Origin: Candidatus Rokuibacteriota bacterium
Lineage (GTDB): Bacteria; Methylomirabilota; Methylomirabilia; Rokubacteriales; CSP1-6
Reading direction: 5' to 3'
DNA: 64,000 bases
NCBI GenBank assembly: GCA_016184365.1
Contig: JACPCW010000079.1
Location: forward strand, 5,661 to 69,660
Under the pieces are notes generated by a model, which was given only the letters and a program-made list of their open reading frames with translations, made no database searches and had not been told where the DNA came from. Shown in pieces: positions 35,776 through 53,979 of this stretch. How positions within the stretch are numbered: the stretch's first letter is position 1; every line of letters starts with the position of its first letter. A program made the translations under genes and the position numbers.

Positions 35776-35833
35776 TGCGCCGCGTCTCGCGCGGCGTCGG
35801 CGTTGCGCCTCGCACGTGCTCATCGCGCAGCAC

Positions 35834-35980
35834 GCGGGGGCGGGTGCCCGGAGGGGGTCCGGCGCCCACGAGATTTGAGCACCCATCACCCTTTGAGCCG
35901 TTCCCACTCGGCACCGCCGGTTCGACATATCCGTGTACGGGCACGGGTCGTCCGGACCCCCTCCGGACACCCGCCCCCGC
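35834..35980 (-). repeat. Structured element family B copy 1
   Basis: 29-nt inverted arms (35834-35862 / 35952-35980, 1 mismatch) enclosing the core ACGAGATTT.AGCACCCATCACC..TTGAGCCGTTCCCACTC. Confidence 0.9.
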
Positions 35981-36058
35981 TCCCCGTCGCGTCGGCCTCC
36001 GGCGGGTGGCGCGCGATGGACGTTCGGCCGCCGGCGGGCGTGGTCCGGCGGCCTTCCG

Positions 36059-37135
36059 ATGATGGCGCGCACCGTCGTGCAGCTCGAGCGCGTCACCAAG
36101 TCGTACGGCGCGGTCCGCGCGCTCGATGCGATCGAGCTCGCGGTCTACGAAGGCGAGCTGCTGTCGCTGCTCGGTCCGTCGGGCTGCGGCAAGACGACGA
36201 CGCTGAACGTGATCGCGGGGTTCGTGGAGCCGGACGCGGGCCGCGTGTCGATCGACGGGAGCGACGTGACGGCGGTGCCCGCGTACCGCCGCGGGCTCGG
36301 CGTCGTCTTCCAGTCGTACGCGCTCTTCCCGCACATGACCGTCGGCGACAACGTGGCGTTCGGATTGCGCGAGCGCGGCATGAGCCGGCGCGACGCGGCG
36401 ACGCGCGTCGGCGAAGCGCTCGCGCTGGTGCGGCTGCCCGGCATGGCGGACGCTCGCCCGCAGCAGCTGTCCGGCGGCATGCAGCAGCGCGTCGCGCTGG
36501 CCCGCGCGCTCGTCATCCGGCCGCGCGTGCTGCTGCTCGACGAGCCGCTCGCGGCGCTCGACAAGAAGCTGCGCGAGGACATGCGCGCCGAGCTCCGCGA
36601 CATCCAGAAGACGGTCGGCATCACGACGATCTTCGTGACACACGACCAGCACGAGGCGCTCGGCCTGTCCGATCGCATCGCGGTCATGAACGCCGGGCGC
36701 ATCGAGCAGCTCGGCGTGCCGCGTGAAATCTACGAGCGGCCCGCGACGCGGTTCGTCGCCGATTTCATCGGGGCGTCGAGCGTGCTGACGGCGCGCGTGC
36801 TCGACGGCCAGACAGTGGAGCTGCCGGGCGGTCTGCGTCTCGCCGTCGACCTCGGACGCCCGCTCGAACCGGGACGGACCGTCGAGCTCATCGTGCGGCC
36901 CGAGCGTGTCCAGCTCGGCGGCGCCGGCGGCAATGCCATGGCGGCGACGGTCGCCAGCGTGATGTATCTCGGCGATCATACGGAGGTGCGGGTCACGCTG
37001 GCGGGTGGTCTGCGGATTCTGGCCGCCGTGCGCGGCGCCGTGGCGCTGAATGCGGGCGATGCGATCACGGTGGCGATCGCGCCGGACGCGTTCCTCGTGC
37101 CGGGCGAGCGGCCGGCTGGCGAGGGGCGCGGCTGA
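36059..37135 (+). CDS. ABC ATPase (PotA-like) with TOBE domain
   Basis: GPSGCGKTT, FQSYALFPHM, LSGGMQQRVALARAL, VTHDQ. Confidence 0.9.
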   Translation: MMARTVVQLERVTKSYGAVRALDAIELAVYEGELLSLLGPSGCGKTTTLNVIAGFVEPDAGRVSIDGSDVTAVPAYRRGLGVVFQSYALFPHMTVGDNVAFGLRERGMSRRDAATRVGEALALVRLPGMADARPQQLSGGMQQRVALARALVIRPRVLLLDEPLAALDKKLREDMRAELRDIQKTVGITTIFVTHDQHEALGLSDRIAVMNAGRIEQLGVPREIYERPATRFVADFIGASSVLTARVLDGQTVELPGGLRLAVDLGRPLEPGRTVELIVRPERVQLGGAGGNAMAATVASVMYLGDHTEVRVTLAGGLRILAAVRGAVALNAGDAITVAIAPDAFLVPGERPAGEGRG

Positions 37136-37653
37136 TGGCCGGTCCGGACGTCACGACGCGCGCCGGCGCGCGGCGCATCGTCGAGGCGCTCGAAGACGCC
37201 GGCGTCACGATCATCACGACGCTGCCGGATACGTGGATCGGTTGGCTGGCCGAAGAGATGCGACGGTCGGCGAGGCTCCGCGTGGTCGACGTCGCGAGCG
37301 AGGAAGAAGCGATCGCGATCGCGTGCGGCGTGAACCTCACCGGCGCCCGCGCCGCCGTCGCCATCCAGAACGCCGGCCTGCTCAACTGCGGCGCGATCGT
37401 CGCGTCGCTCGTCCAGCTGTACCGGATTCCGTGCGTCCTGATCGTCTCGTACCGCGGCAACGAGCGCGATCCCGTGTACTACCACGTGCCGAAGGGTCGG
37501 ATGACGGAGCCGACGCTGCAGGCGTGGGGCGTCCGGCACGCGCGTGCGCGCGCGGGTGAGGCCGTCACCGCGCAGATCGCCGAGGCGTACGTGTGGGCGG
37601 ACGAGGAGCGCGCGCCGTTCGCGTTATTGTTCAGCGCGGAGGACTTGGCGTGA
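37135..37653 (+). CDS. Sulfopyruvate/phosphonopyruvate decarboxylase alpha-like subunit (ComD-like)
   Basis: LPDTW, EEEAIAIACG, QNAGL.N, IVSYRG. Confidence 0.78.
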   Translation: MAGPDVTTRAGARRIVEALEDAGVTIITTLPDTWIGWLAEEMRRSARLRVVDVASEEEAIAIACGVNLTGARAAVAIQNAGLLNCGAIVASLVQLYRIPCVLIVSYRGNERDPVYYHVPKGRMTEPTLQAWGVRHARARAGEAVTAQIAEAYVWADEERAPFALLFSAEDLA

Positions 37654-38231
37654 GCACGACGCGGCGCAAGGCGTATCTCGACGCGCTCGTCGCGGCGCTC
37701 GTGCCCGGACGCGACCTTCTCGTCGCCGGGCTCGGCGCGAATGCGCGCTACCTGCCGCACATGGACGTGCCGGTGCCGTGCTTCGCGCTCTGCGACGCGA
37801 TGGGCTCGGCGATCCCGCTCGCGCTCGGCATGGCGCTCGCGCGCGGCGACCGCCGCGTCGTCGCGCTCGAAGGCGACGGATCGCTGCTGATGAACCTCGG
37901 TACGCTCGCGACCGTCGGCGCCGCGCAGCCCGCGAACCTCGTGGTGATCGTCTTCCGGAACCGGCATTACGAGTCGTCGGGCGGGCAGGACCTGCCGCCG
38001 GTCGAGGTCGACTTCTCGGTCGTCGCGCGTGCGTGCCGGTTTGCGCGCGCCGAGGATGTGCCGGACGCGGAGCATTTCCGCACGGCGTTCGAGCGCGCGT
38101 GCGTCGCCGGCGGTCCGGCGCTGCTCGTCCTCGAAACCGCCTTCGATCCTGCCGAGCCGATCCCGCCGTACTCCGAGCGCCCGGACGAGATTCGCCTCAG
38201 CTTCGCTCAGGCGCTCGCGGCCGGCCGATAA
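37650..38231 (+). CDS. TPP-binding decarboxylase beta-like subunit (ComE-like)
   Basis: AMGSAIPLALG, EGDGSLLMNLG.L.T, N..YESSGGQ. Confidence 0.8.
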   Translation: MSTTRRKAYLDALVAALVPGRDLLVAGLGANARYLPHMDVPVPCFALCDAMGSAIPLALGMALARGDRRVVALEGDGSLLMNLGTLATVGAAQPANLVVIVFRNRHYESSGGQDLPPVEVDFSVVARACRFARAEDVPDAEHFRTAFERACVAGGPALLVLETAFDPAEPIPPYSERPDEIRLSFAQALAAGR

Positions 38232-38253
38232 CCAGTCCCGAGAGGAGGTCGTG

Positions 38254-38742
38254 ATGCTCGCGAAGCACATCTGGATCGCAGTCCTCCTGCTGACCTCACT
38301 GTTCGCTGGAGTGGCTACCGCTCGGGCTGCCGCGAAGGAGTGTGATCGGTGGCTCAAACTCGTCGATGGAGAGGTGCGGGAGCGGAAGGAAGCGCTGGAG
38401 AAGGCCTCGGGAGCCAAGAGGCAGCGTCTCCAGGAAACAGTGGCCCGGACGGCGGGCCCGATCGCCGAGGCCAAGAAGGGCTGCGCCTCGGGGAATGACA
38501 AGGCGGCCACGCTGCGCGCGCTGGAACTGTGGGACACGTTGGTGGAGGAGGAGCGACAGGATGGAAGCCTTTCCCTGAACAGCCGGCTGACGATCATCGC
38601 GCTGCGGGCCGAGCGCTTGAAGGCCTTCCAACAGCGGGGTTGGAAGCCGAAGATCTCGGCCGAGGCACAGCAGTCCCTCCTCGCCGATCTCGACAGGCTC
38701 GATCGTGTGCTCGCGGATGCCTTGAAGCAAGGGCTGCGCTGA
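38254..38742 (+). CDS. Hypothetical secreted helical protein
   Basis: GAGGAGG RBS, signal peptide, two Cys. Codon usage differs from neighbours (CTG/AAG-rich). Confidence 0.65.
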   Translation: MLAKHIWIAVLLLTSLFAGVATARAAAKECDRWLKLVDGEVRERKEALEKASGAKRQRLQETVARTAGPIAEAKKGCASGNDKAATLRALELWDTLVEEERQDGSLSLNSRLTIIALRAERLKAFQQRGWKPKISAEAQQSLLADLDRLDRVLADALKQGLR

Positions 38743-38797
38743 GGCGCGGGACTCCGCAACCTCCCCGTCGGCCGGATCGTGTTCACGCCTCGCCCGG

Positions 38798-38817
38798 AGG
38801 CTCGTGTGTACGAGCCT
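38798..38817. terminator. Hairpin between convergent genes
   Basis: AGGCTCGT-GTGT-ACGAGCCT perfect 8-bp stem, no U-tract. Confidence 0.35.
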
Positions 38818-38852
38818 GGTGGCGAGCGGCGTCGACTGATCCGGCGGAGACG

Positions 38853-40514
<1,662 letters not shown>

Positions 40515-40549
40515 CGGCCCCGTCATCATACGGTACGCTGCGGGTGACG

Positions 40550-40969
40550 ATGGAACGCCAGCGCGTGCTCTTCCTCTGCACGCACAACTCGGCGCGGAGC
40601 CAGATGGCCGAGGGCTTTCTCCGCGCGCTCGCCGGCGACCGCTTCGACGTCGCCAGCGCGGGCACGGAGCGGACGCGCGTCAACCCGCTCGCGACCCGCG
40701 CGATGAGCGAGGTCGGCGTGGATCTGAGCGGGCACTCGTCGAAGACGGTCGACGGTCTGCTCGGCGAGCGGTGGGACTACGTCGTCACGGTGTGCGACGA
40801 CGCGAACGAGCGGTGCCCGATCTTTCCCGGCCGCACGACGCGGCTGCACTGGAGCGTTCCCGATCCGTCGAAGGCCACCGGGACGGACGGCGAGCGCCTC
40901 GCGGTGTTCCGTCAGGTGCGCGACGCGATCCGCGCCCGCCTGGTCGACTGGCTCGGGACCGTTCCCTGA
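40550..40969 (+). CDS. arsC: Arsenate reductase (thioredoxin/LMW-PTP type)
   Basis: [29 protein letters not shown]. Confidence 0.88.
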
Positions 40970-42015
40970 GGGAACCAGTCGCGGGTGCGGTTGCACAGGG
41001 CGCAGACCGACAGCATGACCGGCACCTCGACGAGCACGCCGACGACCGTGGCCAGCGTGGCGCCGGACGTGAGGCCGAAGAGCGAGATGGCCGTCGCGAC
41101 GGCGAGCTCGAAGAAGTTGCTCGCCCCGATGAGCGCGCCGGGCGCGGCCACCGAATGCGGCACGCGGAACCATCGGGCCAGGCCGTAGACCAGGCTCGCG
41201 TTGAAGTAGACCTGGATCAGCAGCGGCACCGCGATCAGGACGATGTGCGCCAGGTTTCCCATGATCACGTCGCCCTGGAACGCGAAGATCAGCACGAGCG
41301 TCGCCAGGAGGGCCGCGACCGACACCGGCTTGAGCCGCGGCAGGAAGACGGATTCGACCCACGCCGCCCCGCGCCATGCGAGCAGCAGCCGTCGCGTGAC
41401 GGCTCCGGCCGCGAGCGGGATCACGATGTAGAGCACGACGGAGTAGATCAGCACGTCGTAGGGCACGGTGATGTTCGACACGCCGAGCAGGAGGATGACG
41501 ATCGGCGCGAACGCGAACAGCATGACGAGGTCGTTCACCGCCACCTGGACGAGCGTGTAGGCCGGATCGCCGTCCGTCAGGTAGCTCCACACGAACACCA
41601 TCGCCGTGCACGGCGCGGCCGCCAGGATGATCACGCCGGCGAGGTACTGGTCGGACAGGTCGGGCCCGATCCAGGCGGCGAACAGATGCTTGAAGAAGAG
41701 CCAGCCGAGCACGGCCATGCTGAAGGGCTTCACCAGCCAGTTCACGAAGAGCACGATCATCAGCCCGCTCGGACGCTGACCGACCCCGCGCAGCGCGCCG
41801 AAGTCGATCCGCACCATCATCGGGTAGATCATGAGCCACACGAGGACGGCGATCGGGACGTTGACGTGCCGGACCTCGAGCTGGCTCAGTCCGCGCACGA
41901 GGGCCGGGGCGGCGCTGCCGAGCGCCACGCCGCCGACGATACAGAGCGCGACCCAGACCGAGAGGTAGCGCTCGAAGACGTCGAGGCGACGGCGGCCCGG
42001 GATCGCGTCCGTCAC
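40912..42015 (-). CDS. acr3: Acr3 arsenite efflux pump
   Basis: FERYLSVWV, WLMIYPMM, APCTAMVFVW, GASNFFELA, GVLVEVPVML. GTG overlaps the phoU stop. Confidence 0.92.
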   Translation of the reverse strand: MTDAIPGRRRLDVFERYLSVWVALCIVGGVALGSAAPALVRGLSQLEVRHVNVPIAVLVWLMIYPMMVRIDFGALRGVGQRPSGLMIVLFVNWLVKPFSMAVLGWLFFKHLFAAWIGPDLSDQYLAGVIILAAAPCTAMVFVWSYLTDGDPAYTLVQVAVNDLVMLFAFAPIVILLLGVSNITVPYDVLIYSVVLYIVIPLAAGAVTRRLLLAWRGAAWVESVFLPRLKPVSVAALLATLVLIFAFQGDVIMGNLAHIVLIAVPLLIQVYFNASLVYGLARWFRVPHSVAAPGALIGASNFFELAVATAISLFGLTSGATLATVVGVLVEVPVMLSVCALCNRTRDWFPQGTVPSQSTRRARIASRT

Positions 42016-42665
42016 GCGAGCGTGTGCCGCACCATCTTCGAGTCGACCATGTAGATCACCATCTCGGCGATGTTCGTCGCGTGGTCCGCGACGCGCTCGA
42101 GGAACCGCGAGATGAAGATCAACCGGATCGCCCGCGGGATGGTCTTCGGGTCTTCCATCATGAACGTCAGCAGCTCGCGGAAGATCTGCTCCTTCAGCGC
42201 ATCCACCGGGTCGTCGTCCGCGCACACCCGGCGCGCCAGGGCCGTGTCGCGCGCGACGAAGGCGTCGAGGCTGTCCTTCACCATGCGCTGCGCGCTCTCG
42301 GCCATGCGCGGCAGATCCATGTACGGCTTGAGCTGCGGCTCGCGGTTCAGCTCGATCGCGCGCTGGGCGATGTTCACGGCCTGGTCGCCGATGCGCTCGA
42401 GGTCGGTGACGATCTTCATCGCCGTGGTGATGAAGCGGAGGTCGCCGGCGGTCGGCTGATAGAGGGCCAGGATCTCGACGCACTTCTCGTCGATCTCGAC
42501 GTCGTAGGCGTTGACCTCGCGGTCCCGGTCGATCACCTCCCGCGCGAGCGCGTCGTCCCGATCGACCAGCGCCTTCATGACGCGCCGGATCTGGTCTTCG
42601 ACGAGCGCGCCCATCAGGAGCAGTGTCTGCTTCAGGTGGTCGAGCTCTTCGTGCATGTGCCGCAT
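42012..42665 (-). CDS. phoU: Phosphate signalling protein PhoU
   Basis: QPTAGDLR, DLERIGD, LERVADHATNIAE. Confidence 0.93.
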   Translation of the reverse strand: MRHMHEELDHLKQTLLLMGALVEDQIRRVMKALVDRDDALAREVIDRDREVNAYDVEIDEKCVEILALYQPTAGDLRFITTAMKIVTDLERIGDQAVNIAQRAIELNREPQLKPYMDLPRMAESAQRMVKDSLDAFVARDTALARRVCADDDPVDALKEQIFRELLTFMMEDPKTIPRAIRLIFISRFLERVADHATNIAEMVIYMVDSKMVRHTLA

Positions 42666-42676
42666 GGGCGCCTCCG

Positions 42677-45078: not shown

Positions 45079-47309
45079 AGTCCCTGGTACCGCCGCCGCA
45101 GACGCAGGCGCACGAGCTCGGCCACGGTGTTCACGGTGAAGGTGAAGCAGAACAGCAGGAACGCCGCGAGGAACAGCACGCGGAAGAGCGTGCCCTGCTC
45201 GGGCGCCTCCGGCAGCTCGACGGCGATGTTGGCCGACAGCGCGCGGAATCCCGAGAAGATGTTCCAGTCCATCACCGGCGTGTTGCCCGTGGCCATCAGC
45301 ACGATCATCGTTTCGCCGACGGCGCGCCCGAAGCCGATCATGATCGCGGAGAAGATGCCGGGGCTCGCGGTCGGCAGCACGATCCGCACCGCCGTCTGCC
45401 AGCGTGTCGCGCCGAGCGCGAGCGATCCCGCGCGCAGGTGCTGCGGCACGTTGGTGAGCGAATCTTCCGCGATCGTGAAGATGATCGGGATGACCGCGAA
45501 GCCCATCGCGATGCCGACGACCACCGAGTTGCGCTGGTCGAAGCCGAGGCCGAGCGCGCTGCCGAGCCAGCCGCGGTAGTCGCCGCCGAGCAGCCACGCT
45601 TCGAGGATCCCGCCGAGCGTGAAGGCGAACCAGCCCGCGATCGCGGCGACGGGCACGAGCGCCAGCGCCTCGACGCCGGGCCGAAGACGCCGCGCGGCCG
45701 GCACGCGGCGCCACAGGAACAGCGTGACGAGGATCCCGAGCGCGAAGACGGGCCCGAACAGCACGAGGCCCGGAAGCACGGCCTCGATCACCGGCGCGAG
45801 CCACAGGCCGGCGAGGAAGCCGAGCACGACGCTCGGGAGCGCGGCCATGATCTCGACGGCCGGTTTCACCGTCGCGCGCAGCGACGGATGCATGAACTCG
45901 CTCACGTAGAGGGCGGCGAGCAGCGCGATCGGCACCGCGAACAGCAGCGCGTAGAGCGTGCCCTTCAGCGTGCCGAAGACGAGCGGGGTCAGCGACAGCT
46001 TCGCCTCGAAGTCGTCCGTGCCGCCCGTGGACTGCCAGACGTAGGTCGGCTCGCCATAGCCCTCGTACCAGACCTTCGCGAAGAGCGCCTTCATCGTGAC
46101 TTCCGGATGCGGATTGTCCACGTCCCAGTGCGTGGCGCGCCCGGTCGCGTCCACGGCGACGACGCCGTCGGCCTTGGGCGCGAACGTCACGGCGCGCACG
46201 GATCCCGCGTGGCCCGGCAGCGTGAGCAGCGTCTGCCCCGTCGTGCCGTAATGCAGCCGCACGACACCGGCGGTATCCGACGTCACGAAGCCCTTGTCGC
46301 GTCGCGACGGGCTCATCGCGGTGATGGCCGCCGCATGTGGCTCGAAGTCGTTCAGCCGCGTCAGCCGCGGCGCGCCGCCGCCGGGGCCGGGCAGCAGCTG
46401 CCAGGTCGAGACACCACCCGCGGCATCGCCGACGACGAGCGTCCGGTCGCCGTTCAGGAATCCGAGCACGGTCACCGCGGAGCCGGCCGTGGTCGCATCG
46501 ACGGCCTCGACGCGGACGGGGTTCGCGCGATCGCGGAGGTCGTAGCGCACGATGCGGCCGCGCGTCGTGCCGACGAAGAGATCGTCGCCGCGGCCGTCGA
46601 GCGCGAGCGCGTTGATCGCGCCGTCGTCCGACAGCGGCAGGTCCTGGCGCGTTTCTTCCTTCGTGCCCGGACCGATGAGCGCCTTGCGCTGCACGACCGC
46701 GACGAGCACGAGACGCGGCGGCGAGACTTCGGCCACGATCACCGGCCCGCCGTCCGGAAAGGCTCCGGCGACGCGCGTGACGGCGCGCCGTCCGTCCGGA
46801 TCGACGGCGACGGGCTCGGCGAACTGCGGGCTCGGCACGATGCGGCGACGGCCGTCTTCGAACGTGACGTCGAACTTCATCTCGAGCGAGATCACGCGGC
46901 CGTCGCTCGTGCCGAGCAGGTGGCGGCCGCCGCCGGCGACGGCCGCGGTCGTCACGCCGGCGCCGTTCAGACCCGCGACGTCGTGCGTCACGGCGCCGTG
47001 GCCGCTCAGCCCGCGAATCTCGATGCGGCCGGCGGGAGTGACCGCGTACATCGCGTCGCGGTATTCGTCGACGGCCGCGAGGAGGACGGGCGAGCCGACG
47101 GCGATCGGCTCGCCGACGCGCCCGGCGCGCGCGGGCCGGAACAGCGGAACGATCTCGAGCGCGATGACGCCGACGATCGCCAGGATGGACGCGATGATGA
47201 CGAGACCACCGCCGGTCACCACGCGCGCCGCCCAGCGGTCCACGAGGAGCCGCCGGGCGGTGCGGGTGCGGTCGAGCGGGATCCGCCGGACCTGGAATGC
47301 GATCGCCAC
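45075..47309 (-). CDS. pstC: Phosphate ABC permease PstC (long form with beta-propeller-like region)
   Basis: VWYEGY..P.YVWQS, KLSLTPL.FGTLK, GRAVGETM, ANIAVELPEA. Confidence 0.9.
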   Translation of the reverse strand: MAIAFQVRRIPLDRTRTARRLLVDRWAARVVTGGGLVIIASILAIVGVIALEIVPLFRPARAGRVGEPIAVGSPVLLAAVDEYRDAMYAVTPAGRIEIRGLSGHGAVTHDVAGLNGAGVTTAAVAGGGRHLLGTSDGRVISLEMKFDVTFEDGRRRIVPSPQFAEPVAVDPDGRRAVTRVAGAFPDGGPVIVAEVSPPRLVLVAVVQRKALIGPGTKEETRQDLPLSDDGAINALALDGRGDDLFVGTTRGRIVRYDLRDRANPVRVEAVDATTAGSAVTVLGFLNGDRTLVVGDAAGGVSTWQLLPGPGGGAPRLTRLNDFEPHAAAITAMSPSRRDKGFVTSDTAGVVRLHYGTTGQTLLTLPGHAGSVRAVTFAPKADGVVAVDATGRATHWDVDNPHPEVTMKALFAKVWYEGYGEPTYVWQSTGGTDDFEAKLSLTPLVFGTLKGTLYALLFAVPIALLAALYVSEFMHPSLRATVKPAVEIMAALPSVVLGFLAGLWLAPVIEAVLPGLVLFGPVFALGILVTLFLWRRVPAARRLRPGVEALALVPVAAIAGWFAFTLGGILEAWLLGGDYRGWLGSALGLGFDQRNSVVVGIAMGFAVIPIIFTIAEDSLTNVPQHLRAGSLALGATRWQTAVRIVLPTASPGIFSAIMIGFGRAVGETMIVLMATGNTPVMDWNIFSGFRALSANIAVELPEAPEQGTLFRVLFLAAFLLFCFTFTVNTVAELVRLRLRRRYQGL

Positions 47310-47310
47310 G

Positions 47311-48279
47311 TTACTGGATCTTGCCCAGCTCTTCCTTCGCGACCTGTGCCGGGATCGGGAAGTACCCGTCCTTCACGACATCACGCTGGCCTTCCTTCGA
47401 CACGGCCAGCTTCACGAACTCGCGCGTGACGGGATCGAGCGGCTTGCCGGGCGCGCGGTTGACGTAGACGTAGAGGAATCGCGCGAGCGGATAGGTGCCC
47501 GCGTAGCTGTTGTCGGCCGTCGCTTCCACGCACTTGCCGCCCGCTTTCTCGGAGAGCGGAACCGCGCGGACGCCGGCCGTCGTGTAGCCGATGCCGCTGT
47601 AGCCCATCGCGAACCTGTCGACCGTTACGCCCTGCACGACGGACGCGGACCCCGGCTGCTCCTTCACCGTGTCCTTGAAGTCGCCGTTCTTCAGCGTCTG
47701 CTCCTTGAAGAACCCGTAGGTGCCCGACGCCGAGTTCCGCCCGTAGAGGCTGATCGGCCGCTTCGCCGCGTCCCCGGTGAGCCCGACCCGGCCCCAGGTC
47801 GTCACGTCTTCCTTGTACCCCTGGCGGCGCGACTTCGAGAAGATCGCGTCGACCTGCGGGATCGACAGGCACTTGATCGGGTTGTCCTTGTGCACGAACA
47901 CCGCGAGCGCGTCGACCGCGACGCGGATCTGCGTCGGCTTGTAGCCGTACTTCTTCTCGAACTGGTCGATCTCGCTGCCCTTCATCGCGCGGGACATCGG
48001 ACCGAGCTGCGCCGTGCCGGAGATCAGCGCGGGCGGCGCGGTGGACGAGCCCTTGCCTTCGACCTGCACCTTGGTCGACGGGTAGAACTTCGCGTACGTC
48101 TCGGCCCAGTAGGTCATGAGATTGTTGAAGGTGTCCGAGCCGACGCTCGAGATACTGCCGCTCACGCCGCTCACGGCCTTGTAGGACGGCAGGTTCGGAT
48201 CGACTTCGACCTGGGCCATGACGGGCGCCGCGAGCATCAGGACTGCGGCCAGCACGACGAGCACGTTCCGCCTGTTCAT
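47311..48279 (-). CDS. pstS: Phosphate-binding protein
   Basis: [36 protein letters not shown]. Confidence 0.93.
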
Positions 48280-48330
48280 TCGTCCTCCTCTCATGGTGGC
48301 TTCATCGTGAGGAGCACGTATGTCCGCACG

Positions 48331-48360
48331 GTCACGGCGGTGTAAACAGGTTCGTTACAG
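48331..48360 (-). promoter_or_regulatory. Pho-box-like repeats upstream of pstS
   Basis: Minus strand CTGTAAC-gaac-CTGTTTA-caccg-CCGTGAC, with ~11-nt spacing resembling CTGTCAT repeats. Confidence 0.5.
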
Positions 48361-48412
48361 CCGATCGAGCGGGCTCCCCACGCGCGTCCGGCGCGCGGGG
48401 CCACCCGGTGGG

Positions 48413-49546
48413 CTACTTCGAGGCCGCGAAACGCGCCAGGTGGTGGTCCGCGTCGCCGAACATCTGCGCGATCATGGTCAGCCGCCGGAAGGTGTGGCTG
48501 ATCTTGAGCTCTTCCGTCATGCCCATGCCCCCGTGCAGCTGCACCGCCTCCTGGCTGACGTGGCGCGCGGCGTCCGCGATCTTGATCTTCGCCGCGGACA
48601 CGATGCGGCGGCGCTCGACGTCGTCGCCGCTGTCGATCTTCACGCACGCGAGCGTGGCGATCGATCGCGCCTGCTCGTAGCTGATCAGGATGTCGACCAT
48701 GCGATGCTGCAGCGCCTGGAAGGTGCCGATCGGCACGCCGAACTGCCGGCGTGTCTTGAGGTAGTCGAGCGTCGCGTCGTGCGCGTACTTGATGGCGCCG
48801 ACGGCCTCCGCACACACGAGCACCGTCGCGTAATCCACGACTCCTTCGATGACGGGAAGGCCCTGGCCTTCGGCGCCGATCACGGCGTCGCGCCCGACCG
48901 TCACGCCGGAGAGACGCACCTCGGCGACCCGGTGAGCGTCGACGCCGCGCGCCTGGGTGACCGTCAGGCCGCGTGCGTTGCGCGGGACGAGGAAGAGCGT
49001 GATGCCGCGCGCGTCCGTGTCGCCACCGTCGGTGCGCGCGGAGACGACGAGGAGGTCGGCGGCGCCGCCGTGGAGGACGACGCATTTCTCGCCGTCGAGC
49101 GTGAAGCCATCGCCGGCCGCGCGCGCGCGCGTCGTGACGTGCGCGAGGTCGTAGCGTGCGCCACGCTCGGTGTGCGCGAACGCCATCTTCGTCTTGCCCT
49201 GGATGAGGCCGGGCAGGATCGCGTCCTGTTGCGCCTTCGTGCCGGCGCGGGCGATGAATTGCCCGCCGAGGCCGACGGTGGCCAGGTACGGCTCGACGAC
49301 CAGCGCCTCGCCGAGCGCTTCCATCACGACCATCATGTCGATCGTCGTGCCGCCGAAGCCGCCGTGCTCGCTCCCGAACGGCACACTGAGCACGCCCATT
49401 TCCGCGAGCGCGGCCCACACGTCGTCGCTGTGGCCCGCGGGTGACGCCACGATCTTGGCGCGCGCGTCGAAGTTGTAGCCCGTCGCCAGAAAGCGCCGGA
49501 TCGTTTCCGAGAGGAGCCGCTGCTCTTCGCTGTATTCGAAGTCCAT
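48413..49546 (-). CDS. Acyl-CoA dehydrogenase (PimD-like partner)
   Basis: R.QFGVPIGTFQALQHR, QLHGGMG. Confidence 0.9.
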   Translation of the reverse strand: MDFEYSEEQRLLSETIRRFLATGYNFDARAKIVASPAGHSDDVWAALAEMGVLSVPFGSEHGGFGGTTIDMMVVMEALGEALVVEPYLATVGLGGQFIARAGTKAQQDAILPGLIQGKTKMAFAHTERGARYDLAHVTTRARAAGDGFTLDGEKCVVLHGGAADLLVVSARTDGGDTDARGITLFLVPRNARGLTVTQARGVDAHRVAEVRLSGVTVGRDAVIGAEGQGLPVIEGVVDYATVLVCAEAVGAIKYAHDATLDYLKTRRQFGVPIGTFQALQHRMVDILISYEQARSIATLACVKIDSGDDVERRRIVSAAKIKIADAARHVSQEAVQLHGGMGMTEELKISHTFRRLTMIAQMFGDADHHLARFAASK

Positions 49547-49559
49547 GGCCGGCTCCTCC

Positions 49560-50744
49560 TCAGAGTCCCAGGGTCGCTTTGGCGATGATGTTCCGCTGGA
49601 TCTCGTTCGAGCCGGCGTAGATCGTCGCCTTTCTCAGATTCATGTAGCGGCCGGTGAGCGACGCGGTGAACGTGTCGAACGCCGCCGTCGCGTCGACGGC
49701 GCGGTACGGGTGCGCGAACGGCCCCGCCGTCTGCATCATCATCTCCGTGATCGCCTGCTGGATCTCCGTCCCGCGGATCTTGAGCATCGAGACCTCGGCG
49801 CCGGGCGGACGATCGCCGCGCCGGAGCTGGTCGAGGAACCGGAGATTGGTGATCTCGAGCGCCATCAGCTCGACTTCGACGCGGGTGATGCGGTCGCGGA
49901 ACCGCGGGTCGTCGAGCAGCGTGCCGCCGTTCACGCGCGTGCGTGCCGCGAGCGTCTTCACGCGCACCAGCTCGCGCTTCGACAGCGCAATCCGCCCGGT
50001 GCCCATGCGCTCGTACCCGAGCAGGTACTTCGCGACCGTCCAGCCCTTCCCTTCCTCGTGCACGAGGTTCGCGGCCGGGACGCGCACGTCGTCGAAGAAG
50101 ACCTCGTTGACCTCGTGGCCCTGGTCCATCAGCACGATCGGCCGCACGGTGATGCCGGGCGACTTCATGTCGATGAGCAGGAACGAGATGCCCTCCTGGC
50201 GCTTCTCGCGCGTGGCATCCGTGCGCACGAGGCAGAAGATCCAGTCGCCGTAGTGCCCGAGCGTCGTCCAGATCTTCTGGCCGGTCACGACGTAGTGATC
50301 GCCGTCGCGCACCGCGCGGGTCTTGAGCGACGCGAGGTCCGAGCCGGCGCCGGGCTCGGAGTAGCCCTGTACCCAGAAATCGTCGCCGTCGTAGATGCGC
50401 GGGAGGAACCGCTGCTTCTGCTCCGGCGTCCCGAACCGCAGCAGCACCGGTGCGCACATCCGGACGCCGAACGCGACGATTGGAGGACACCCGGCGGTCT
50501 CGCATTCCTCCTCGAAGATGTAGCGCTGCACGACCGTCCAGTTCGTGCCGCCCCACTCGACGGGCCAGAACGGCGCGACCCAGCCTTTCGTCGCGAGCCG
50601 GCGGTGCCACCCGAGGAGGTCCTCCTTGGTGAGCTCCCGGTAGTTCAGGACCTTGTCCCGGATGTCCTCCGGCAGGCTCTCGCGGATCCAGGTGCGCACC
50701 TCGTCACGGAACGCCACTTCCCCGGGGGAATAGTTGAGGTCCAT
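49560..50744 (-). CDS. Acyl-CoA dehydrogenase (PimC-like)
   Basis: QGYSEPGAGSDLASL, GQKIWT, IYAGSNEIQRNII. Confidence 0.9.
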   Translation of the reverse strand: MDLNYSPGEVAFRDEVRTWIRESLPEDIRDKVLNYRELTKEDLLGWHRRLATKGWVAPFWPVEWGGTNWTVVQRYIFEEECETAGCPPIVAFGVRMCAPVLLRFGTPEQKQRFLPRIYDGDDFWVQGYSEPGAGSDLASLKTRAVRDGDHYVVTGQKIWTTLGHYGDWIFCLVRTDATREKRQEGISFLLIDMKSPGITVRPIVLMDQGHEVNEVFFDDVRVPAANLVHEEGKGWTVAKYLLGYERMGTGRIALSKRELVRVKTLAARTRVNGGTLLDDPRFRDRITRVEVELMALEITNLRFLDQLRRGDRPPGAEVSMLKIRGTEIQQAITEMMMQTAGPFAHPYRAVDATAAFDTFTASLTGRYMNLRKATIYAGSNEIQRNIIAKATLGL

Positions 50745-50864
50745 TCGGGCCTGCTCCTCTCGCGCCGGCTCGGCCGGCGACCGCTTCCTTCCTATACCCC
50801 AATCGCGGGTCGGTTCGCATGATGCCGTTGGGCGGGCGGGAATTTTCCCGCGGGCGTCCGCGCG

Positions 50865-52676
50865 TCAGGCCGGCGCGACGGGCAGCCGCACGCGCGCCGT
50901 CGTCCCGCGGCCGTGTTCGCTCTCGATCGTGAGCTCGCCGCCGTGCGCCTGCACGAGGTGCTTCACGATCGCCAGCCCGAGCCCCGTGCCGCCGAGCTCC
51001 CGCGAGCGCGCCTTGTCGACGCGATAGAACCGCTCGGTGATGCGCGGCAGATCGGCGGCCGGAATGCCGACGCCGGTGTCCGTGACGTCGATCTCGACGC
51101 CGCCGTCGCTCGCGCGCGCCGAGAGCTTCACGCGCCCGCCCGCCGGCGTGTACTTCACGGCGTTGTCGACCAGGTTGATCAGGATCTGATGGATGCGGTC
51201 ATGATCCGCCTGCACCGCCGGCAGATCCGGCGGCAGATCGAGATCGATGGCGACGCGGCTCCCGTCCGCGCGCGGCCGGAGAATCGCGACGACCGACTCG
51301 GCGACGTCCGGGACCGCCACGGGCCCGAGGTCGAGCGTGATCTTGCCGAGCTCGATGTTCGACAGGTCGGTGAGGTCGTTCAGCAGCCGGCCCAGCCGCT
51401 CGGTGTGGCGGTGCACCACCTCGAGGAAACGCCGGCTGTCCGCGGGCTCGTCGATCGCGCCACCGAGGAGCGTTTCCACGTAGCCCTGGATCGCCGTCAG
51501 CGGCGTACGCAGCTCGTGCGACACGTTCGCGACGAACTCGGTCCGCACGCGCTCGAGGCGGCGCAGCTCGGTCACGTCGTGGAGCACCATGACGACGCCG
51601 AGCGGTCCGGCGCCGAGGCGGAGCGGCATCGCGTGCACGTCGAGCGTGCGGCGCGAGGCGCCGGTGTCGATGACCACCTCACGCCGCATCGCCGCGCTTT
51701 CGGCCACGCCGCGCGCGCGGCGCGCGACGCCGTGCAGGTCGGCGTTGCGGACGACTTCCAGCAGTGGCTTGCGCTCGCCGAGGCCCGGCGGGACGTCGAA
51801 CATGGCGCGCGCCGGCTCGTTGATCAGGAGGATCGCGTCGTGGCCGTCGACGGCGACGACGCCTTCGACCATGGCGTCGAGGATCGTCGTGACCTTCGCG
51901 TGCTCCTGCTCGAGATCCTCGATCTTGTCGCGCAGGCTCGTCGACATGGCATTGAGCGCGCGCGCGAGGCTGCCGATCTCGTCGATCGAGCGGACGGGTG
52001 CGCGCGTCCGGAAATCGCCCTCGCTCATCCGCGCGGCGATCCGCTGCATCTCGACGACGGGTCGCGTGATGCGCCGGGAGACGAAGAGGCTGATGCCCGC
52101 CGCGATGGCGAGCGCGACGATGCCGCCGATCAGCAGCGCGCGGCCGAGCGCGCGATGTGAGGCGGTGACGACGGACAGCGGCAGCGCCAGCCGCAGCACG
52201 CCGACGACGCGACCGGCGTCGGTCACGGGCTGTCCGACGTGGAGGAGTGACTCCTGCACGGTCCCCGTCGTTCGGAGATCCCGGCCGAGACGCCCGGCGA
52301 GCGCGGCCTTCACCTCGGGTCGGGCGGACTCGTTGTCGACGCGCGGCAGCTCTTCGAAGGCCACGCCGGAATCGGCGAGGACGCGCCCGTCGGCCGCGAT
52401 CAACGTGACACGCGCCCCGGTCGGACGCGCCGCACGCATGACGAGCGCCTGCAGCGCGGTCGCGGGCGCGTCGCCGGCCACGAGCATCCGCGCTTCGTCG
52501 TGCAGGAGCCGCGCCGCCGTGTGGAGCTGGCCTTCGACCGCGCGTTCCGCGAACGACTGCAGCGCCAGGCTCAGGTAGACGCCGGCGACGAAGAGCACGA
52601 GCGCGACGAAGCCGACGAGCGTGAGGGTGAGCTTGACGGAAATCCGGCTGCGCAGCCCGCGGAGGAGCGCTTCCAT
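50865..52676 (-). CDS. phoR: Phosphate regulon sensor histidine kinase
   Basis: HAMP, PAS, EFVANVSHELRTPL, ERFYRVDKARSR..GGTGLGL. Confidence 0.85.
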   Translation of the reverse strand: MEALLRGLRSRISVKLTLTLVGFVALVLFVAGVYLSLALQSFAERAVEGQLHTAARLLHDEARMLVAGDAPATALQALVMRAARPTGARVTLIAADGRVLADSGVAFEELPRVDNESARPEVKAALAGRLGRDLRTTGTVQESLLHVGQPVTDAGRVVGVLRLALPLSVVTASHRALGRALLIGGIVALAIAAGISLFVSRRITRPVVEMQRIAARMSEGDFRTRAPVRSIDEIGSLARALNAMSTSLRDKIEDLEQEHAKVTTILDAMVEGVVAVDGHDAILLINEPARAMFDVPPGLGERKPLLEVVRNADLHGVARRARGVAESAAMRREVVIDTGASRRTLDVHAMPLRLGAGPLGVVMVLHDVTELRRLERVRTEFVANVSHELRTPLTAIQGYVETLLGGAIDEPADSRRFLEVVHRHTERLGRLLNDLTDLSNIELGKITLDLGPVAVPDVAESVVAILRPRADGSRVAIDLDLPPDLPAVQADHDRIHQILINLVDNAVKYTPAGGRVKLSARASDGGVEIDVTDTGVGIPAADLPRITERFYRVDKARSRELGGTGLGLAIVKHLVQAHGGELTIESEHGRGTTARVRLPVAPA

Positions 52677-52678
52677 CG

Positions 52679-53362
52679 TCAGGCGACCTCGAGCTGGTAG
52701 CCGACGCCCTTCACGGTGACGATGCGGCGCCCCGCGTCGCCGAGCTTGGCACGGAGGCGGCGCACGTGGACGTCGACCGTGCGTGACTCGATCTCGTCGG
52801 CGCGGGCGTAGCCCCACGCGCGCTCGAGGAGCTGCTCGCGCGACAGCACGCGCCCCGGCGATTCGAGCAGCGTCTGCAGCAGCGCGAACTCGCGGGGCGC
52901 CAGCCCGATCGGCTGTCCGTCGACGTCGACCCGATGGCGCGAGACATCGAGCGTGATCCCCGACGCCGACAGCGGCGCGTCGTGCGTCGTGCGCGGCCGA
53001 TTGCGACGCAGGACCGCGCGGACGCGTGCGACGAGCTCTTTCGGCGAGAACGGCTTGACGACGTAATCATCGGCGCCGAGCTCGAGCCCGACGATGCGGT
53101 CGATCTCCTCGACCTTCGCGGTGAGCATGATGATCGGCATCGCGGCGGTCGCCGCATCGGTGCGAAGCCGGCGGCAGACTTCGAGACCGTCGATGCCGGG
53201 GAGCATGAGGTCGAGAATCACGAGATCGGGCCGGCGATTGCGCACCTCCTGCATCGCATCGGGTCCGGTCGTGGCGGTCCGCGTCTGAAACCCTTCGCGC
53301 GACAGGTGGTGGACCACCAGCGCGCGAATGTCGGATTCGTCATCGACGACCAGCACTTCCAT
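52679..53362 (-). CDS. phoB: OmpR/PhoB-family response regulator
   Basis: ILDLMLPG, GLELGADDY..KPFS, RTVDVHVRRLR.KL. Adjacent to phoR and near pst. Confidence 0.8.
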   Translation of the reverse strand: MEVLVVDDESDIRALVVHHLSREGFQTRTATTGPDAMQEVRNRRPDLVILDLMLPGIDGLEVCRRLRTDAATAAMPIIMLTAKVEEIDRIVGLELGADDYVVKPFSPKELVARVRAVLRRNRPRTTHDAPLSASGITLDVSRHRVDVDGQPIGLAPREFALLQTLLESPGRVLSREQLLERAWGYARADEIESRTVDVHVRRLRAKLGDAGRRIVTVKGVGYQLEVA

Positions 53363-53465
53363 GCCGTGCCGATTCTACGCCGCGCCTCGCATCGACGCGT
53401 CGCGTTGGACGCGGTCGCCGTCGTGCGACGACGGCGGCGGGCCGGACGCGATCGACCGGTGGTGC

Positions 53466-53618
53466 GGCCGGCGGCGGCGGGCCGGGGAGGGGCTCGCAGC
53501 CCACGAGATTTCAGCACCCATCACCGTTTGAGCCGTTCCCACTCCCCACGCCGTGGTCGACTTCACCCGCGGCAGGCACGGGTCTGTCGAGCCCCTCCCC
53601 GACCCACCGCCGCCGGCC
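53466..53618 (-). repeat. Structured element family B copy 2
   Basis: 31-nt inverted arms (53466-53496 / 53588-53618, 2 mismatches) around the same core. Confidence 0.9.
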
Positions 53619-53743
53619 ACAACGCGCGCGCCGCGGGCATCGCGCAGAAGCGCGCAGAGCGCACGCGCCGCGGCGCGCGTCGTCGCACGACGCCGCGAAG
53701 CGGCGGGTTCGGAACGTCGTGGAGCGACGGGCAACGGGTGAGG

Positions 53744-53891
53744 CGCGGGCGGTCGAGGTGGGAGGGGTCCGACAGACGCGTGCCTGCCGCGGGTGATGTC
53801 GAAGCAGCGGTGGCCGAGTGGGAACGGCTCAAGCGGTGATGGGTGCTGAAATCTCGTCGGCTGCGGACCCCTCCCACCTCGGCCGCCCGCG
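53744..53891 (+). repeat. Structured element family B copy 3, inverted relative to copy 2
   Basis: 28-nt arms (53744-53771 / 53864-53891, one G-T pair). Core GAGTGGGAACGGCTCAAGCGGTGATGGGTGCTGAAATCTCGT. Confidence 0.9.
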
Positions 53892-53979
53892 GCCGCAACG
53901 CGTCGTCCGGCCCGTACACGACGCCCGTCGTCCGGCCCGTGGACGCGGCGTGGGGCGATGACGAGCGACGACGCGCGCG

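What the first reader, a model, noticed from the sequence alone, without database searches (positions are those of the whole stretch)
35834..53891. Family B: ~150-bp element with a long covarying stem and strand-specific wobble pairs
Seen: three copies (35834-35980, 53466-53618, 53744-53891). The 28-31 nt arms differ considerably between copies, for example GGGGTCC/GGACCCC versus GGGGCTC/GAGCCCC, yet each copy is nearly perfectly self-complementary. All four arm mismatches are G-T on the strand reading GAGTGGGAACGGCTCAA..GGTGATGGGTGCT.AAATCTCGT and C-A on the other strand. The ~42-nt core is almost invariant. Orientation is not tied to local transcription: copy 1 is antisense inside the ABC operon. 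Inference: a single-stranded structured entity, either an unannotated ncRNA or a non-autonomous element moved through an ssDNA/RNA intermediate. I do not recognise it as a known riboswitch or ribozyme.
Basis: partly seen in the sequence, partly recalled or inferred. Interest (0 to 1): 0.8.

Follow-up and report, generated by a model that had tools for sequence, protein, structure and literature searches.

The report
Hairpin-bearing miniature transposon family in Methylomirabilota
The three repeats are copies of a small non-coding jumping element whose centre is a long hairpin that keeps its pairing while its sequence drifts, and one strand seems to be the one that has to fold.

Summary
The window holds three copies (one single, two as an inverted pair). 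Its genome holds 27. Each has a 24-46 bp near-perfect stem around a conserved ~85-nt core. All 31 outer-stem pairs show changes on both sides. No Rfam family matches.

It is not a host ncRNA gene family. [quoted passage not shown]
- Copy 1 is a ~295-nt insertion between an ABC permease gene and an ATPase gene. Four relatives have that site empty.
- In relative G023 the hairpin lies between 19-nt terminal inverted repeats flanked by CTAG/TTAG repeats. There are 318 repeat hits and 0 control hits.
- Matches occur only in one bacterial family of the phylum and are patchy by genus.
- Copies sit downstream of genes and never between divergent genes.

No transposase partner was found and no RNA data exist. 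Why a MITE keeps a strand-specific folded core is unexplained, and that is the interesting part.

The parts
35823..35990 (-). Copy 1: hairpin plus core. Stem runs 35834-35980, core about 35866-35947. The strand reading GAGTGGGAAC is the minus strand.
   Evidence: Model R1 scores 150.2 bits. Arms have 23 of 24 Watson-Crick pairs plus 1 T·G.
35757..36052 (-). The whole ~295-nt insertion that carries copy 1, between the ABC permease stop and the ATPase start. It is the hairpin plus ~70-nt decayed linkers on each side. Boundaries are approximate.
   Evidence: Orthologous sites in G001, G005, G021 and G023 have only 6-51 nt between the two genes. The left linker aligns in part with the G023 element's linker, sharing GAGGCCG..GAC.
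53458..53625 (-). Copy 2: hairpin plus core. Stem runs 53463-53621, core about 53501-53582. It is the left half of an inverted pair.
   Evidence: Model R1 scores 152.1 bits. Arms have 27 of 30 Watson-Crick pairs plus 3 T·G.
53626..53733 (.). 108-nt spacer between the two units of the inverted (-,+) pair.
   Evidence: Coordinates. The same (-,+) layout recurs in G023 with a 66-nt spacer and in G002 with a 55-nt spacer.
53734..53903 (+). Copy 3: hairpin plus core. Stem runs 53744-53891, core about 53777-53859. It is the right half of the inverted pair.
   Evidence: Model R1 scores 148.8 bits. Arms have 23 of 24 Watson-Crick pairs plus 1 T·G.
34987..35775 (+). Flanking gene: ABC transporter permease. 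Its 3' end abuts the copy 1 insertion.
   Evidence: Pfam BPD_transp_1, E 3.7e-13. Gene call.
36059..37135 (+). Flanking gene: ABC transporter ATPase, downstream of copy 1.
   Evidence: Pfam ABC_tran, E 2e-37, and TOBE_2.
52679..53362 (-). Flanking gene: response regulator (OmpR type), left of the inverted pair.
   Evidence: Pfam Response_reg and Trans_reg_C.
53980..55287 (-). Flanking gene with a CxxCxxCC domain, right of the inverted pair.
   Evidence: Pfam CxxCxxCC, E 1.1e-4, just at the cut-off.

Best explanation
[quoted passage not shown] These are short non-coding DNA transposons that cannot move by themselves.

A complete unit, as seen in relative G023, is 217-325 bp long. It reads: 19-nt terminal inverted repeat, ~22-nt linker, G-rich arm, ~85-nt conserved core, C-rich arm, ~25-nt linker, terminal inverted repeat. 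It is flanked by a duplicated CTAG-like target. Two units joined head to head form a ~470-bp composite that has itself been copied.

The copies in this genome are older. Their hairpin and core are intact but their terminal repeats have decayed.

Shown: it is a dispersed, mobile, non-coding element of one family of Methylomirabilota genomes, and it persists downstream of genes.

Inferred:
- A DDE transposase supplied in trans moves it by its terminal repeats. The CTAG target points to an IS630-like or IS5-like enzyme.
- The inner hairpin is kept because the strand reading GAGTGGGAAC must fold as a single strand. Only the pairing, the bulged T beside the closing pair and the core motifs are constrained, not the arm sequence.

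My best guess is that this fold matters for the element's own propagation, as single-stranded DNA or as its own transcript. I think a service to neighbouring genes is less likely, because copies face either way relative to host transcription.
For: Mobility:
- Copy 1 is a ~295-nt insertion. The same permease|ATPase junction has a 6-51 nt gap in G001, G005, G021 and G023.

Transposon anatomy in G023:
- In the 10 aligned composites the 19-nt ends CCCGGATTATTCATGAACG / CGTTCATGAATAATCCGGG are mostly flanked by CTAG. One composite has TTAG on both sides. A few ends differ.
- The 18-nt end motif occurs 318 times at up to 3 mismatches. The reversed control occurs 0 times.

Distribution:
- 12 of 41 relatives have a match, counting G000: 11 of 24 in family f1 and 0 of 16 in other families of the order.
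- Phylum-wide, 28 of 151 genomes have a match, counting G000: 27 of 93 in f1 and 0 of 57 in ten other families.
- It is patchy by genus: g35 8 of 8, g39 0 of 7.

Placement:
- By my gene caller 26 of the 27 copies lie between genes; the 27th (C110:34802) overlaps a called ORF.
- The copies occupy 23 sites: 12 between convergent genes (16% of intergenic length expected, p=7e-5) and 0 between divergent genes (25% expected, p=0.003).
- At co-directional sites both orientations occur.

Structural constraint:
- 31 of 31 outer-stem pairs change on both sides, with 96.9% of cells paired.
- The closing pair GACCCX / Y-G(T)GGTC covaries as G:C, C:G and A:T.
- In 41 young G023 units the arms and core are almost invariant, while the linkers vary at about 5-6%.

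Strand bias (G·T-type against A·C-type mismatches on the GAGTGGGAAC strand):
- 23 against 6 distinct interior events, binomial p=0.002, in 46 of 53 copies with a mismatch-blind alignment.
- 37 against 4 events in the inner 23 pairs of the model alignment.
- 10 against 2 sites in G023 hairpins. The adjacent linker, used as a control, gives 3 against 6.
Against: - No autonomous element or transposase with matching ends was found. PF01609 genes in G023, G002 and G005 have no such end within their loci. PF13586 has 0 matches in 5 genomes. The only PF13358 match is a remnant that belongs to another repeat family.
- The 27 copies in this genome show no clear terminal repeats or target duplications. 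The best flank match to the G023 end is 9 bases. The MITE anatomy is therefore carried over from a relative of a different genus.
- Only one filled/empty comparison succeeded. The other sites tried lost synteny or were occupied by other hairpin elements.
- Terminal repeats plus target duplication imply double-stranded cut-and-paste. That gives no obvious reason for a strand-specific fold.
- Wobble events are partly shared by descent. The genomes are draft metagenome bins.
- No expression data exist.
- The inner core helix proposed by RNAalifold (CCGT.CC with GG.AACGG) has no compensatory support: 11 of 53 cells are unpaired at one of its pairs.
Confidence: 0.75

Rival explanations
1. It is a family of host-encoded structured non-coding RNA genes. 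The stem and core are an RNA fold used by the cell.
For: Very strong stem covariation, G·U-type wobble bias on one strand, and a core conserved across genera.
Against: - Copy 1's site is empty in four relatives.
- G023 copies carry terminal repeats and target duplications.
- Both orientations occur relative to neighbouring genes.
- I saw no T-run after the hairpins and no flank motif shared by the copies; I ran no promoter or terminator scan.
- There is no covariation inside the core.
- There is no Rfam match.
Confidence: 0.08
2. The complementarity is a neutral by-product. Arms of a long quasi-palindrome are repeatedly corrected against each other by template switching during replication, so they drift together without any selection on a fold.
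For: Arms evolve much faster than the core yet stay near-perfect. Quasi-palindrome correction by template switching is an established mutational process (recalled; no paper read here).
Against: - It predicts equal G·T-type and A·C-type mismatches, but 23 against 6 are seen.
- It does not explain the conserved asymmetric internal loop, the bulged T and the covarying closing pair.
- Other hairpin families in the same genome are biased towards different strands: X2 gives 1 G·T against 8 A·C.
Confidence: 0.12
3. It is an element moved as single-stranded DNA, of the REP/RAYT or IS200/IS605 (PATE) kind. A Y1 transposase would recognise the folded hairpin on one strand.
For: The constraint is on hairpin structure rather than sequence, it is strand-specific, and copies are dispersed between genes.
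Against: - PF01797 (Y1_Tnp) has 0 matches in G000 and in G005. Its occurrence among 25 genomes (7 positive) does not follow the element.
- Complete units have terminal inverted repeats and target duplications, which IS200/IS605 elements lack (recalled).
- At 160-170 nt, the unit is far larger than a REP.
Confidence: 0.04
4. It is a transcription terminator or mRNA-end hairpin that the host has spread downstream of genes.
For: 12 of 23 sites lie between convergent genes and none between divergent genes. The stems are very stable, with whole-region fold energies of -112 to -142 kcal/mol.
Against: - No T-run follows the stem.
- Copy 1 sits inside an operon, between a permease gene and its ATPase gene.
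- A terminator needs no conserved 85-nt core.
- The placement is equally well explained by selection against insertions in promoters.
Confidence: 0.05

Closest known systems
Bacterial MITEs with a hairpin-forming body, such as the Correia repeat enclosed elements of Neisseria
   Same: Both are short, non-coding and multi-copy. Both have terminal inverted repeats around a conserved core and a short target duplication. Both lie next to genes in either orientation. MITE transcripts are described as forming stable stem-loops (passages of PMC10969869). Correia elements are described as binding RNase III (abstract of PMC2649163).
   Different: Here the long stem is a separate inner hairpin of 24-46 bp, set apart from the terminal repeats by unpaired linkers. 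Its sequence differs from copy to copy while pairing is kept. Its mismatches favour one strand. The element is GC-rich (70-78% GC), whereas MITEs are described as typically AT-rich. Binding of IHF or RNase III was not tested.
Integron attC recombination sites
   Same: In both, structure is conserved rather than sequence. Both are imperfect hairpins in which one strand is the active one and extrahelical bases mark it (recalled, not tested here). Family B likewise has a conserved bulged T and an asymmetric internal loop.
   Different: In attC the conserved boxes lie at the base of the stem and the apex varies. Here the apex (core) is conserved and the base varies. Family B copies are scattered between ordinary genes rather than behind cassettes in an array. 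I did not search for an integron integrase.
IS630-family (Tc1/mariner-like) and IS5-family insertion sequences and their MITEs
   Same: G023 units are flanked by CTAG, or TTAG in one composite. As I recall, IS630 inserts at CTAG and duplicates TA, and IS5 duplicates a 4-bp YTAR target. Another hairpin repeat of this genome (X3) does share its end with an IS630-family transposase remnant.
   Different: No transposase gene with family B ends was found. The target rule is read from 10 aligned composites only.
REP elements with RAYT, and ERIC sequences of enterobacteria
   Same: All are intergenic palindromic repeats found downstream of genes, occurring in inverted pairs and tandem arrays.
   Different: REPs are 20-40 nt and depend on a Y1 transposase, which is not detectable here. 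ERIC has no terminal-repeat or target-duplication anatomy comparable to that of G023 (recalled).

Membership tests
MITE (miniature inverted-repeat transposable element) | Short (about 50-500 bp), non-coding, many copies | tested here: met
   Hairpin unit is 160-170 nt. Whole units are 217-325 bp and composites about 470 bp. There are 27 copies in G000. A one-base indel inside the core rules out coding.
MITE (miniature inverted-repeat transposable element) | Terminal inverted repeats | tested here: inconclusive
   Met in G023: 19-nt ends, 318 hits against 0 control hits. Not met in the window's own genome: only remnants in 2 of 27 copies, C76a and the C59 array.
MITE (miniature inverted-repeat transposable element) | Target-site duplication | tested here: inconclusive
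   Most of the 10 aligned G023 composites have CTAG at their ends, and one has TTAG on both sides. Because CTAG is a palindrome, a 4-bp and a 2-bp (TA) duplication cannot be told apart. None is recognisable in G000.
MITE (miniature inverted-repeat transposable element) | Presence/absence differences at orthologous sites | tested here: met
   Copy 1's site is filled in G000 and empty in G001, G005, G021 and G023. Only this one site could be compared.
MITE (miniature inverted-repeat transposable element) | A related autonomous insertion sequence with the same ends | tested here: not met
   None was found near PF01609, PF13586 or PF13358 matches. No long-range arm pairs with family B junctions exist in G000. 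Draft bins often lack insertion sequences, so this is weak evidence.
Rfam RNA families (riboswitches, ribozymes, sRNAs) | A score at or above a family's gathering threshold | tested here: not met
   0 matches in the window at gathering thresholds. In 10 copies at E up to 10 there were 36 matches, all far below threshold. All but one (VA RNA) were microRNA precursor hairpins, several on both strands. The best was 47 bits against a threshold of 168.
REP/RAYT and IS200/IS605-derived elements | A Y1 (HUH) transposase in the genome; no terminal repeats and no target duplication | tested here: not met
   PF01797 has 0 matches in G000. Terminal repeats and duplications are present in G023.
Integron attC site | R''/L''-L'/R' boxes at the stem base; a position behind gene cassettes next to intI | not tested
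   I did not search for the boxes or for an integrase. The context (between an ABC permease and its ATPase, or between convergent housekeeping-type genes) does not look like a cassette array.
Intrinsic terminator | A GC-rich hairpin followed by a T-run | tested here: not met
   No T-run follows any of the 27 stems, by inspection of the sequences. The scan tool was not run.

The most novel reading that the evidence does not exclude
The hairpin and core form a strand-specific single-stranded recognition structure that the element needs in order to spread. It could be a folded DNA strand, in the manner of attC sites or IS608 ends, or the element's own structured RNA. That would define a class of MITE whose propagation depends on a folded single strand as well as, or instead of, its terminal repeats. 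Several sister families in these genomes (B2, X1, X2) are built on the same plan, each with its own preferred strand.
Probability: 0.25. Interest if true: 0.75.

Novelty: new variant of a known kind. Interest (0 to 1): 0.5.

Why it matters
MITEs are usually seen as passive deletion products of insertion sequences, with only the terminal repeats mattering. In this family the best-conserved part is an inner hairpin. Its pairing, bulge and core are held over genus-level divergence while the arm sequence turns over. Its mismatches point to one strand as the folded one. That pattern is otherwise known from structured RNAs and from recombination sites read as folded single strands.

If the fold is needed for mobility, it would link cut-and-paste-type elements to single-strand recognition. 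It would also offer a natural series of compensated stems for testing structure-specific recognition.

In practice these repeats break assemblies of Methylomirabilota/Rokubacteria-type genomes, since many copies lie at contig ends. They can also mimic ncRNA candidates in covariation screens.

Tried and rejected
- **Rfam.** No family at gathering thresholds. At E up to 10, nearly all hits were microRNA-precursor hairpins, plus one to VA RNA, all far below threshold and several on both strands.
- **Autonomous copy in G000.** I looked for family B junctions with complementary arms up to 8 kb apart. There were 33 short elements and 6 unrelated long-range pairs, and none looked like an insertion sequence.
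- **'Empty' hairpins** that a core might have inserted into. No family of G-rich/C-rich hairpins without a core was found. I dropped the idea that the arms are pre-existing host palindromes, also because the G-rich arm is always 5' of the core.
- **Flank homology among G000 copies.** Only array-internal similarity was found. There was no enriched terminal motif beyond weak CGATGA/TGACGC.
- **Transposase searches.** PF01797, PF01609, PF13586 and PF13358 gave no partner.
- **Further filled/empty comparisons.**
  - The site of copies 2 and 3 has lost synteny in relatives.
  - At the C68 site only one flank matched.
  - At the C76b site only one flank matched.
  - At the C113 site, G002 carries a family B element in the same orientation. 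G005 and G023 carry other hairpin elements, and G001 has no hairpin there. So the site is a hot spot or holds an old insertion, and it is not a clean empty site.
- **Expression.** No RNA holder was listed.
- **Laying four DNA metagenome runs on 35000-54500.** This gave many partial contigs from related organisms, and no listed joint skips an element. One contig of run X7 stops matching at 35780, near the left edge of the copy 1 insertion. I could not interpret that.
- **Plasmid and phage collections.** No match.
- **Core structure.** The helix proposed by RNAalifold has no compensatory support. A search over all column pairs found no covariation in the core beyond the closing pair.
- **Literature.** Five searches found no description of this element or of repeats in Rokubacteria/Methylomirabilota. 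They cover open-access papers and bioRxiv only.

Full report
**1. The observation**

Read in one orientation they align with 81% mean column identity. The centre is nearly invariant and the arms are divergent but self-complementary.

The window is contig C28:5661-69660 of a draft genome of 5.58 Mb in 146 contigs with 70% GC.

Three rounds of nhmmer seeded with the three copies give 26, 27 and 27 hits at E <= 1e-3. A covariance model built on the 27 (R1) finds 36 matches in the genome at E <= 0.01:
- the same 27 copies
- one copy interrupted by Ns (C102)
- two reverse-strand echoes
- six members of a sister family, here called B2. It has the same stem style and the same junctions (GACCCGT... 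and ...CGTGGTC) but a different core.

**2. Anatomy**

Read on the strand GAGTGGGAACGG, each copy consists of:
- a G-rich 5' arm and a C-rich 3' arm of 24-46 near-perfect pairs. Across 53 copies the left arm has 958 G against 378 C.
- an irregular inner stem with a bulge or an asymmetric internal loop
- a closing helix GACCCX / Y-G(T)GGTC with a bulged T, whose X:Y pair covaries as G:C, C:G and A:T
- an ~85-nt core with invariant blocks T-KCC, GTGGGAAC and CGT.G

RNAalifold predicts 45 pairs, of which 34 show changes on both sides.

I then counted pairs on 53 copies from G000 and several relatives. Three of those rows come from the unpublished genomes G024 and G011. Results:
- 94.6% of cells pair. 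Shuffled partners give 66.9% (0 of 500 shuffles reach the observed value). Slid partners give 42-50%.
- All 31 outer-stem pairs change on both sides.
- The helix that RNAalifold proposed inside the core has no compensatory change.

That alignment was fitted to the model's structure, so it leans towards it. A search over all column pairs found nothing further in the core. The core therefore looks constrained in sequence and the stem constrained in structure.

**3. It is not in Rfam**

The window has no match at gathering thresholds. In ten copies at E up to 10 there were 36 matches, all far below threshold. All but one (VA RNA) were microRNA-precursor hairpins, several on both strands. The plasmid and phage collections have no match.

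**4. It is mobile DNA**

*Filled and empty sites.* The copy 1 region was searched in five relatives. In G021, G023, G005 and the congeneric G001, the permease and ATPase genes are 6-51 nt apart. In G000 about 295 nt lie between them. G021, G023 and G005 carry the family elsewhere.

*Distribution.*
- 12 of 41 genomes have a match, counting G000: 11 of 24 in family f1 and 0 of 16 in the order's other families.
- Across the phylum, 28 of 151 genomes have a match, counting G000: 27 of 93 in f1 and 0 of 57 in ten other families.
- By genus the result ranges from 8 of 8 to 0 of 7.
- Two of the positive genomes (G024, G011) are unpublished.
- Many matches lie at contig ends.

By my arm test 50 of the 113 have complementary flanks. 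The other 63 do not, or are cut off by a contig end. The multi-copy holders are MAGs titled Candidatus Methylomirabilia, Methylomirabilota or Rokuibacteriota. Hits in Streptomyces, Pseudomonas and other taxa are single.

*Placement.* My own codon-usage gene caller gives 5,237 genes and 89% coding.
- By it, 26 of the 27 copies lie between genes. One (C110:34802) overlaps a called ORF, which I did not resolve.
- The 23 sites comprise 12 between convergent genes, 11 between co-directional genes and 0 between divergent genes.
- By intergenic length the expected numbers are 3.7, 13.5 and 5.8 (chi-square p=4e-6).
- At co-directional sites both orientations occur.

**5. Transposon anatomy in a relative**

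In G023 the copies are young and alike. I fetched 20 loci. Five were chosen because one search had already shown a pair there, and fifteen were chosen as top single hits. Ten of the 20 hold a (-,+) pair with a fixed 66-nt spacer.

Aligned, the composites have sharp ends:
- CCCGGATTATTCATGAACG on the left
- its complement on the right
- mostly flanked by CTAG. One composite has TTAG on both sides, one has CTAA on one side and CTAG on the other, and a few ends differ.

The spacer consists of two further end-like motifs, so a composite is two units joined head to head. Its two orientations account for both arrangements seen.

The 18-nt end motif occurs 318 times in G023 at up to 3 mismatches. The reversed control occurs 0 times. 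Paired ends lie 217-325 bp apart for single units and about 470 bp apart for composites.

Copies 2 and 3 of the window are such a (-,+) pair, with a 108-nt spacer. G002 has one with a 55-nt spacer.

In G000 the ends have decayed. No flank matches the G023 end over more than 9 bases. Two kinds of remnant remain:
- C76a keeps GTTCATCA...TGATGAAC together with the linker GGACAGCG.
- Copy 1's linker aligns in part with the G023 linker.

Tandem arrays (three copies on C59, two on C2) repeat the spacer as well, so they arose by local duplication.

**6. No partner enzyme found**

- Y1 transposase (PF01797): 0 matches in G000, and 7 of 25 genomes positive without relation to the element.
- DDE_Tnp_1 (PF01609): 7 matches in 3 of 5 genomes, none with the end motif within its locus.
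- DDE_Tnp_1_2 (PF13586): 0 of 5 genomes.
- DDE_3 (PF13358): one remnant at the start of contig C33 in G000. Its downstream end matches a different repeat family, X3.

The CTAG target fits what I recall of IS630 (inserts at CTAG, duplicates TA) and of IS5 (YTAR, 4 bp). That is a lead, not a test.

**7. The strand bias holds**

All counts are on the GAGTGGGAAC strand, G·T-type against A·C-type.
- In the arms of the 27 G000 copies: 33 against 15 cells.
- In the model alignment of 53 copies, inner 23 pairs: 42 against 4 cells, or 37 against 4 distinct contexts.
- With a mismatch-blind arm alignment, counting only mismatches flanked by three matches on each side: 23 against 6 distinct events, p=0.002. 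This used 46 of the 53 copies. Seven were dropped because my anchor pattern failed on them.
- In 41 young G023 units, hairpin variants are G·T-type at 10 sites and A·C-type at 2. The adjacent linker, which only pairs by chance, gives 3 against 6.
- In those units the arms and core are almost invariant, while the linkers vary at about 5-6%.
- Other hairpin families of G000 are also biased, and not always towards the G-rich-arm strand: X1 7 against 2, B2 6 against 2, X2 1 against 8. These numbers are small and the events are not independent.

Strand-symmetric mutation followed by arm-to-arm correction would give equal classes. The simplest reading is therefore a constraint on pairing in one single strand.

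**8. Reading**

Family B is the inner module of a MITE family confined to one family of Methylomirabilota-type bacteria. The ordinary part is dispersal, decay and survival downstream of genes. The unexplained part is why the best-kept portion of a terminal-repeat-bounded element is a strand-specific hairpin with a sequence-conserved core.

Because copies face either way relative to host genes, a cis role in host mRNAs fits poorly. A role in the element's own propagation, as folded DNA or as its own RNA, fits better but is not shown.

No RNA run holds the region. Laid metagenome contigs were uninformative.

**9. Literature**

A 2024 review describes prokaryotic MITEs as having direct repeats, terminal inverted repeats and a core. 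It says they are typically AT-rich and that their transcripts form stable stem-loops (passages of PMC10969869).

The abstract of PMC2649163 describes Correia elements as an inverted repeat with a conserved core that binds IHF and RNase III.

Searches for repeats or inverted repeats in Rokubacteria or Methylomirabilota, and for compensatory stem-loops in bacterial MITEs, found nothing on this element. These searches cover open-access papers and bioRxiv only.

Noticed in passing
G000 contigs C63:5926-6096, C118:25442-25610, C74:25095-25264, C51:31173-31340, C105:35210-35379, C63:15594-15763 (outside the window): Sister family B2. It has the same long G-rich/C-rich stem and the same junctions (GACCCGT..., ...CGTGGTC) as family B, but a different ~90-nt core containing GGCTGGAACCCAGCC and CGCAACGGGTCG. 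The 5' junction GACCCGT can also pair with the internal ACGGGTC.
   Followed up: partly
G000, for example C39:11054-11216, C9:10845-10999, C80:16214-16379, C1:22993-23144 (X1); C22:58335-58485, C44:14750-14900, C2:192924-193067, C88:26593-26736 (X2): Two further hairpin repeat families built on the same plan: variable 34-48 bp stems, conserved inner stem ends (..CTCCGGAAATCCGTTTG or ..CTCCGGAATTCCG), and conserved 69-77-nt loops. X2's wobble bias points to the opposite strand from that of families B and X1.
   Followed up: partly
G000 C33:1-390, and X3 copies such as C92:12835-13074, C127:7193-7441 and C28:19-255 (upstream of the window): Repeat family X3 has conserved ends, CTAATGAKTCTCGCGGAATTGG. 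The same end (..GCGAGACTCATTAG) follows the C-terminal remnant of an IS630-family (DDE_3) transposase at the edge of contig C33. X3 therefore looks like a MITE of that insertion sequence.
   Followed up: partly
G000 C113:24860-25030 and the orthologous sites L219 (G002), L223 (G005), L222 (G023), L220 (G001): The same convergent intergenic region holds different elements in different genomes. G000 and G002 have a family B element in the same orientation but with different arms. G005 has a different hairpin MITE with its own terminal repeats next to CTAG. G023 has a plain 99-nt hairpin. G001 has no hairpin. This is either an insertion hot spot or a very old insertion.
   Followed up: partly
G000 C2:35980-36110 and 36220-36300 (outside the window): The spacers of the C2 tandem array contain short repeats of GCGCGCGATGACGCGGC. 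This resembles the CGATGAACG inner end motif of the G023 units.
   Followed up: no
G000 C76:59055-59090, C76:48786-48817, C90:9506 region: A short motif GGGGGCCCCGACATGGCCCCCC(A)CCCCC recurs in either orientation. One pair lies 233 nt apart and another 7.9 kb apart.
   Followed up: no
G000 C125:3301 and about 7 kb downstream: A perfect 20-nt inverted repeat (GCGGCGTCTTCGGTCTCAAG and its complement) 6,980 nt apart. It may mark the ends of a larger mobile element.
   Followed up: no
G000 C41:20621-20737: A lone 46-bp near-perfect G-rich/C-rich hairpin with an AT-richer 25-nt loop. It belongs to none of the families above.
   Followed up: no
G000 C110:34802-34923: This family B copy overlaps the 3' part of an ORF (34668-36584, minus strand) called by my crude gene caller. 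I did not check whether the copy lies inside a real gene or the ORF is over-extended through GC-rich sequence.
   Followed up: no
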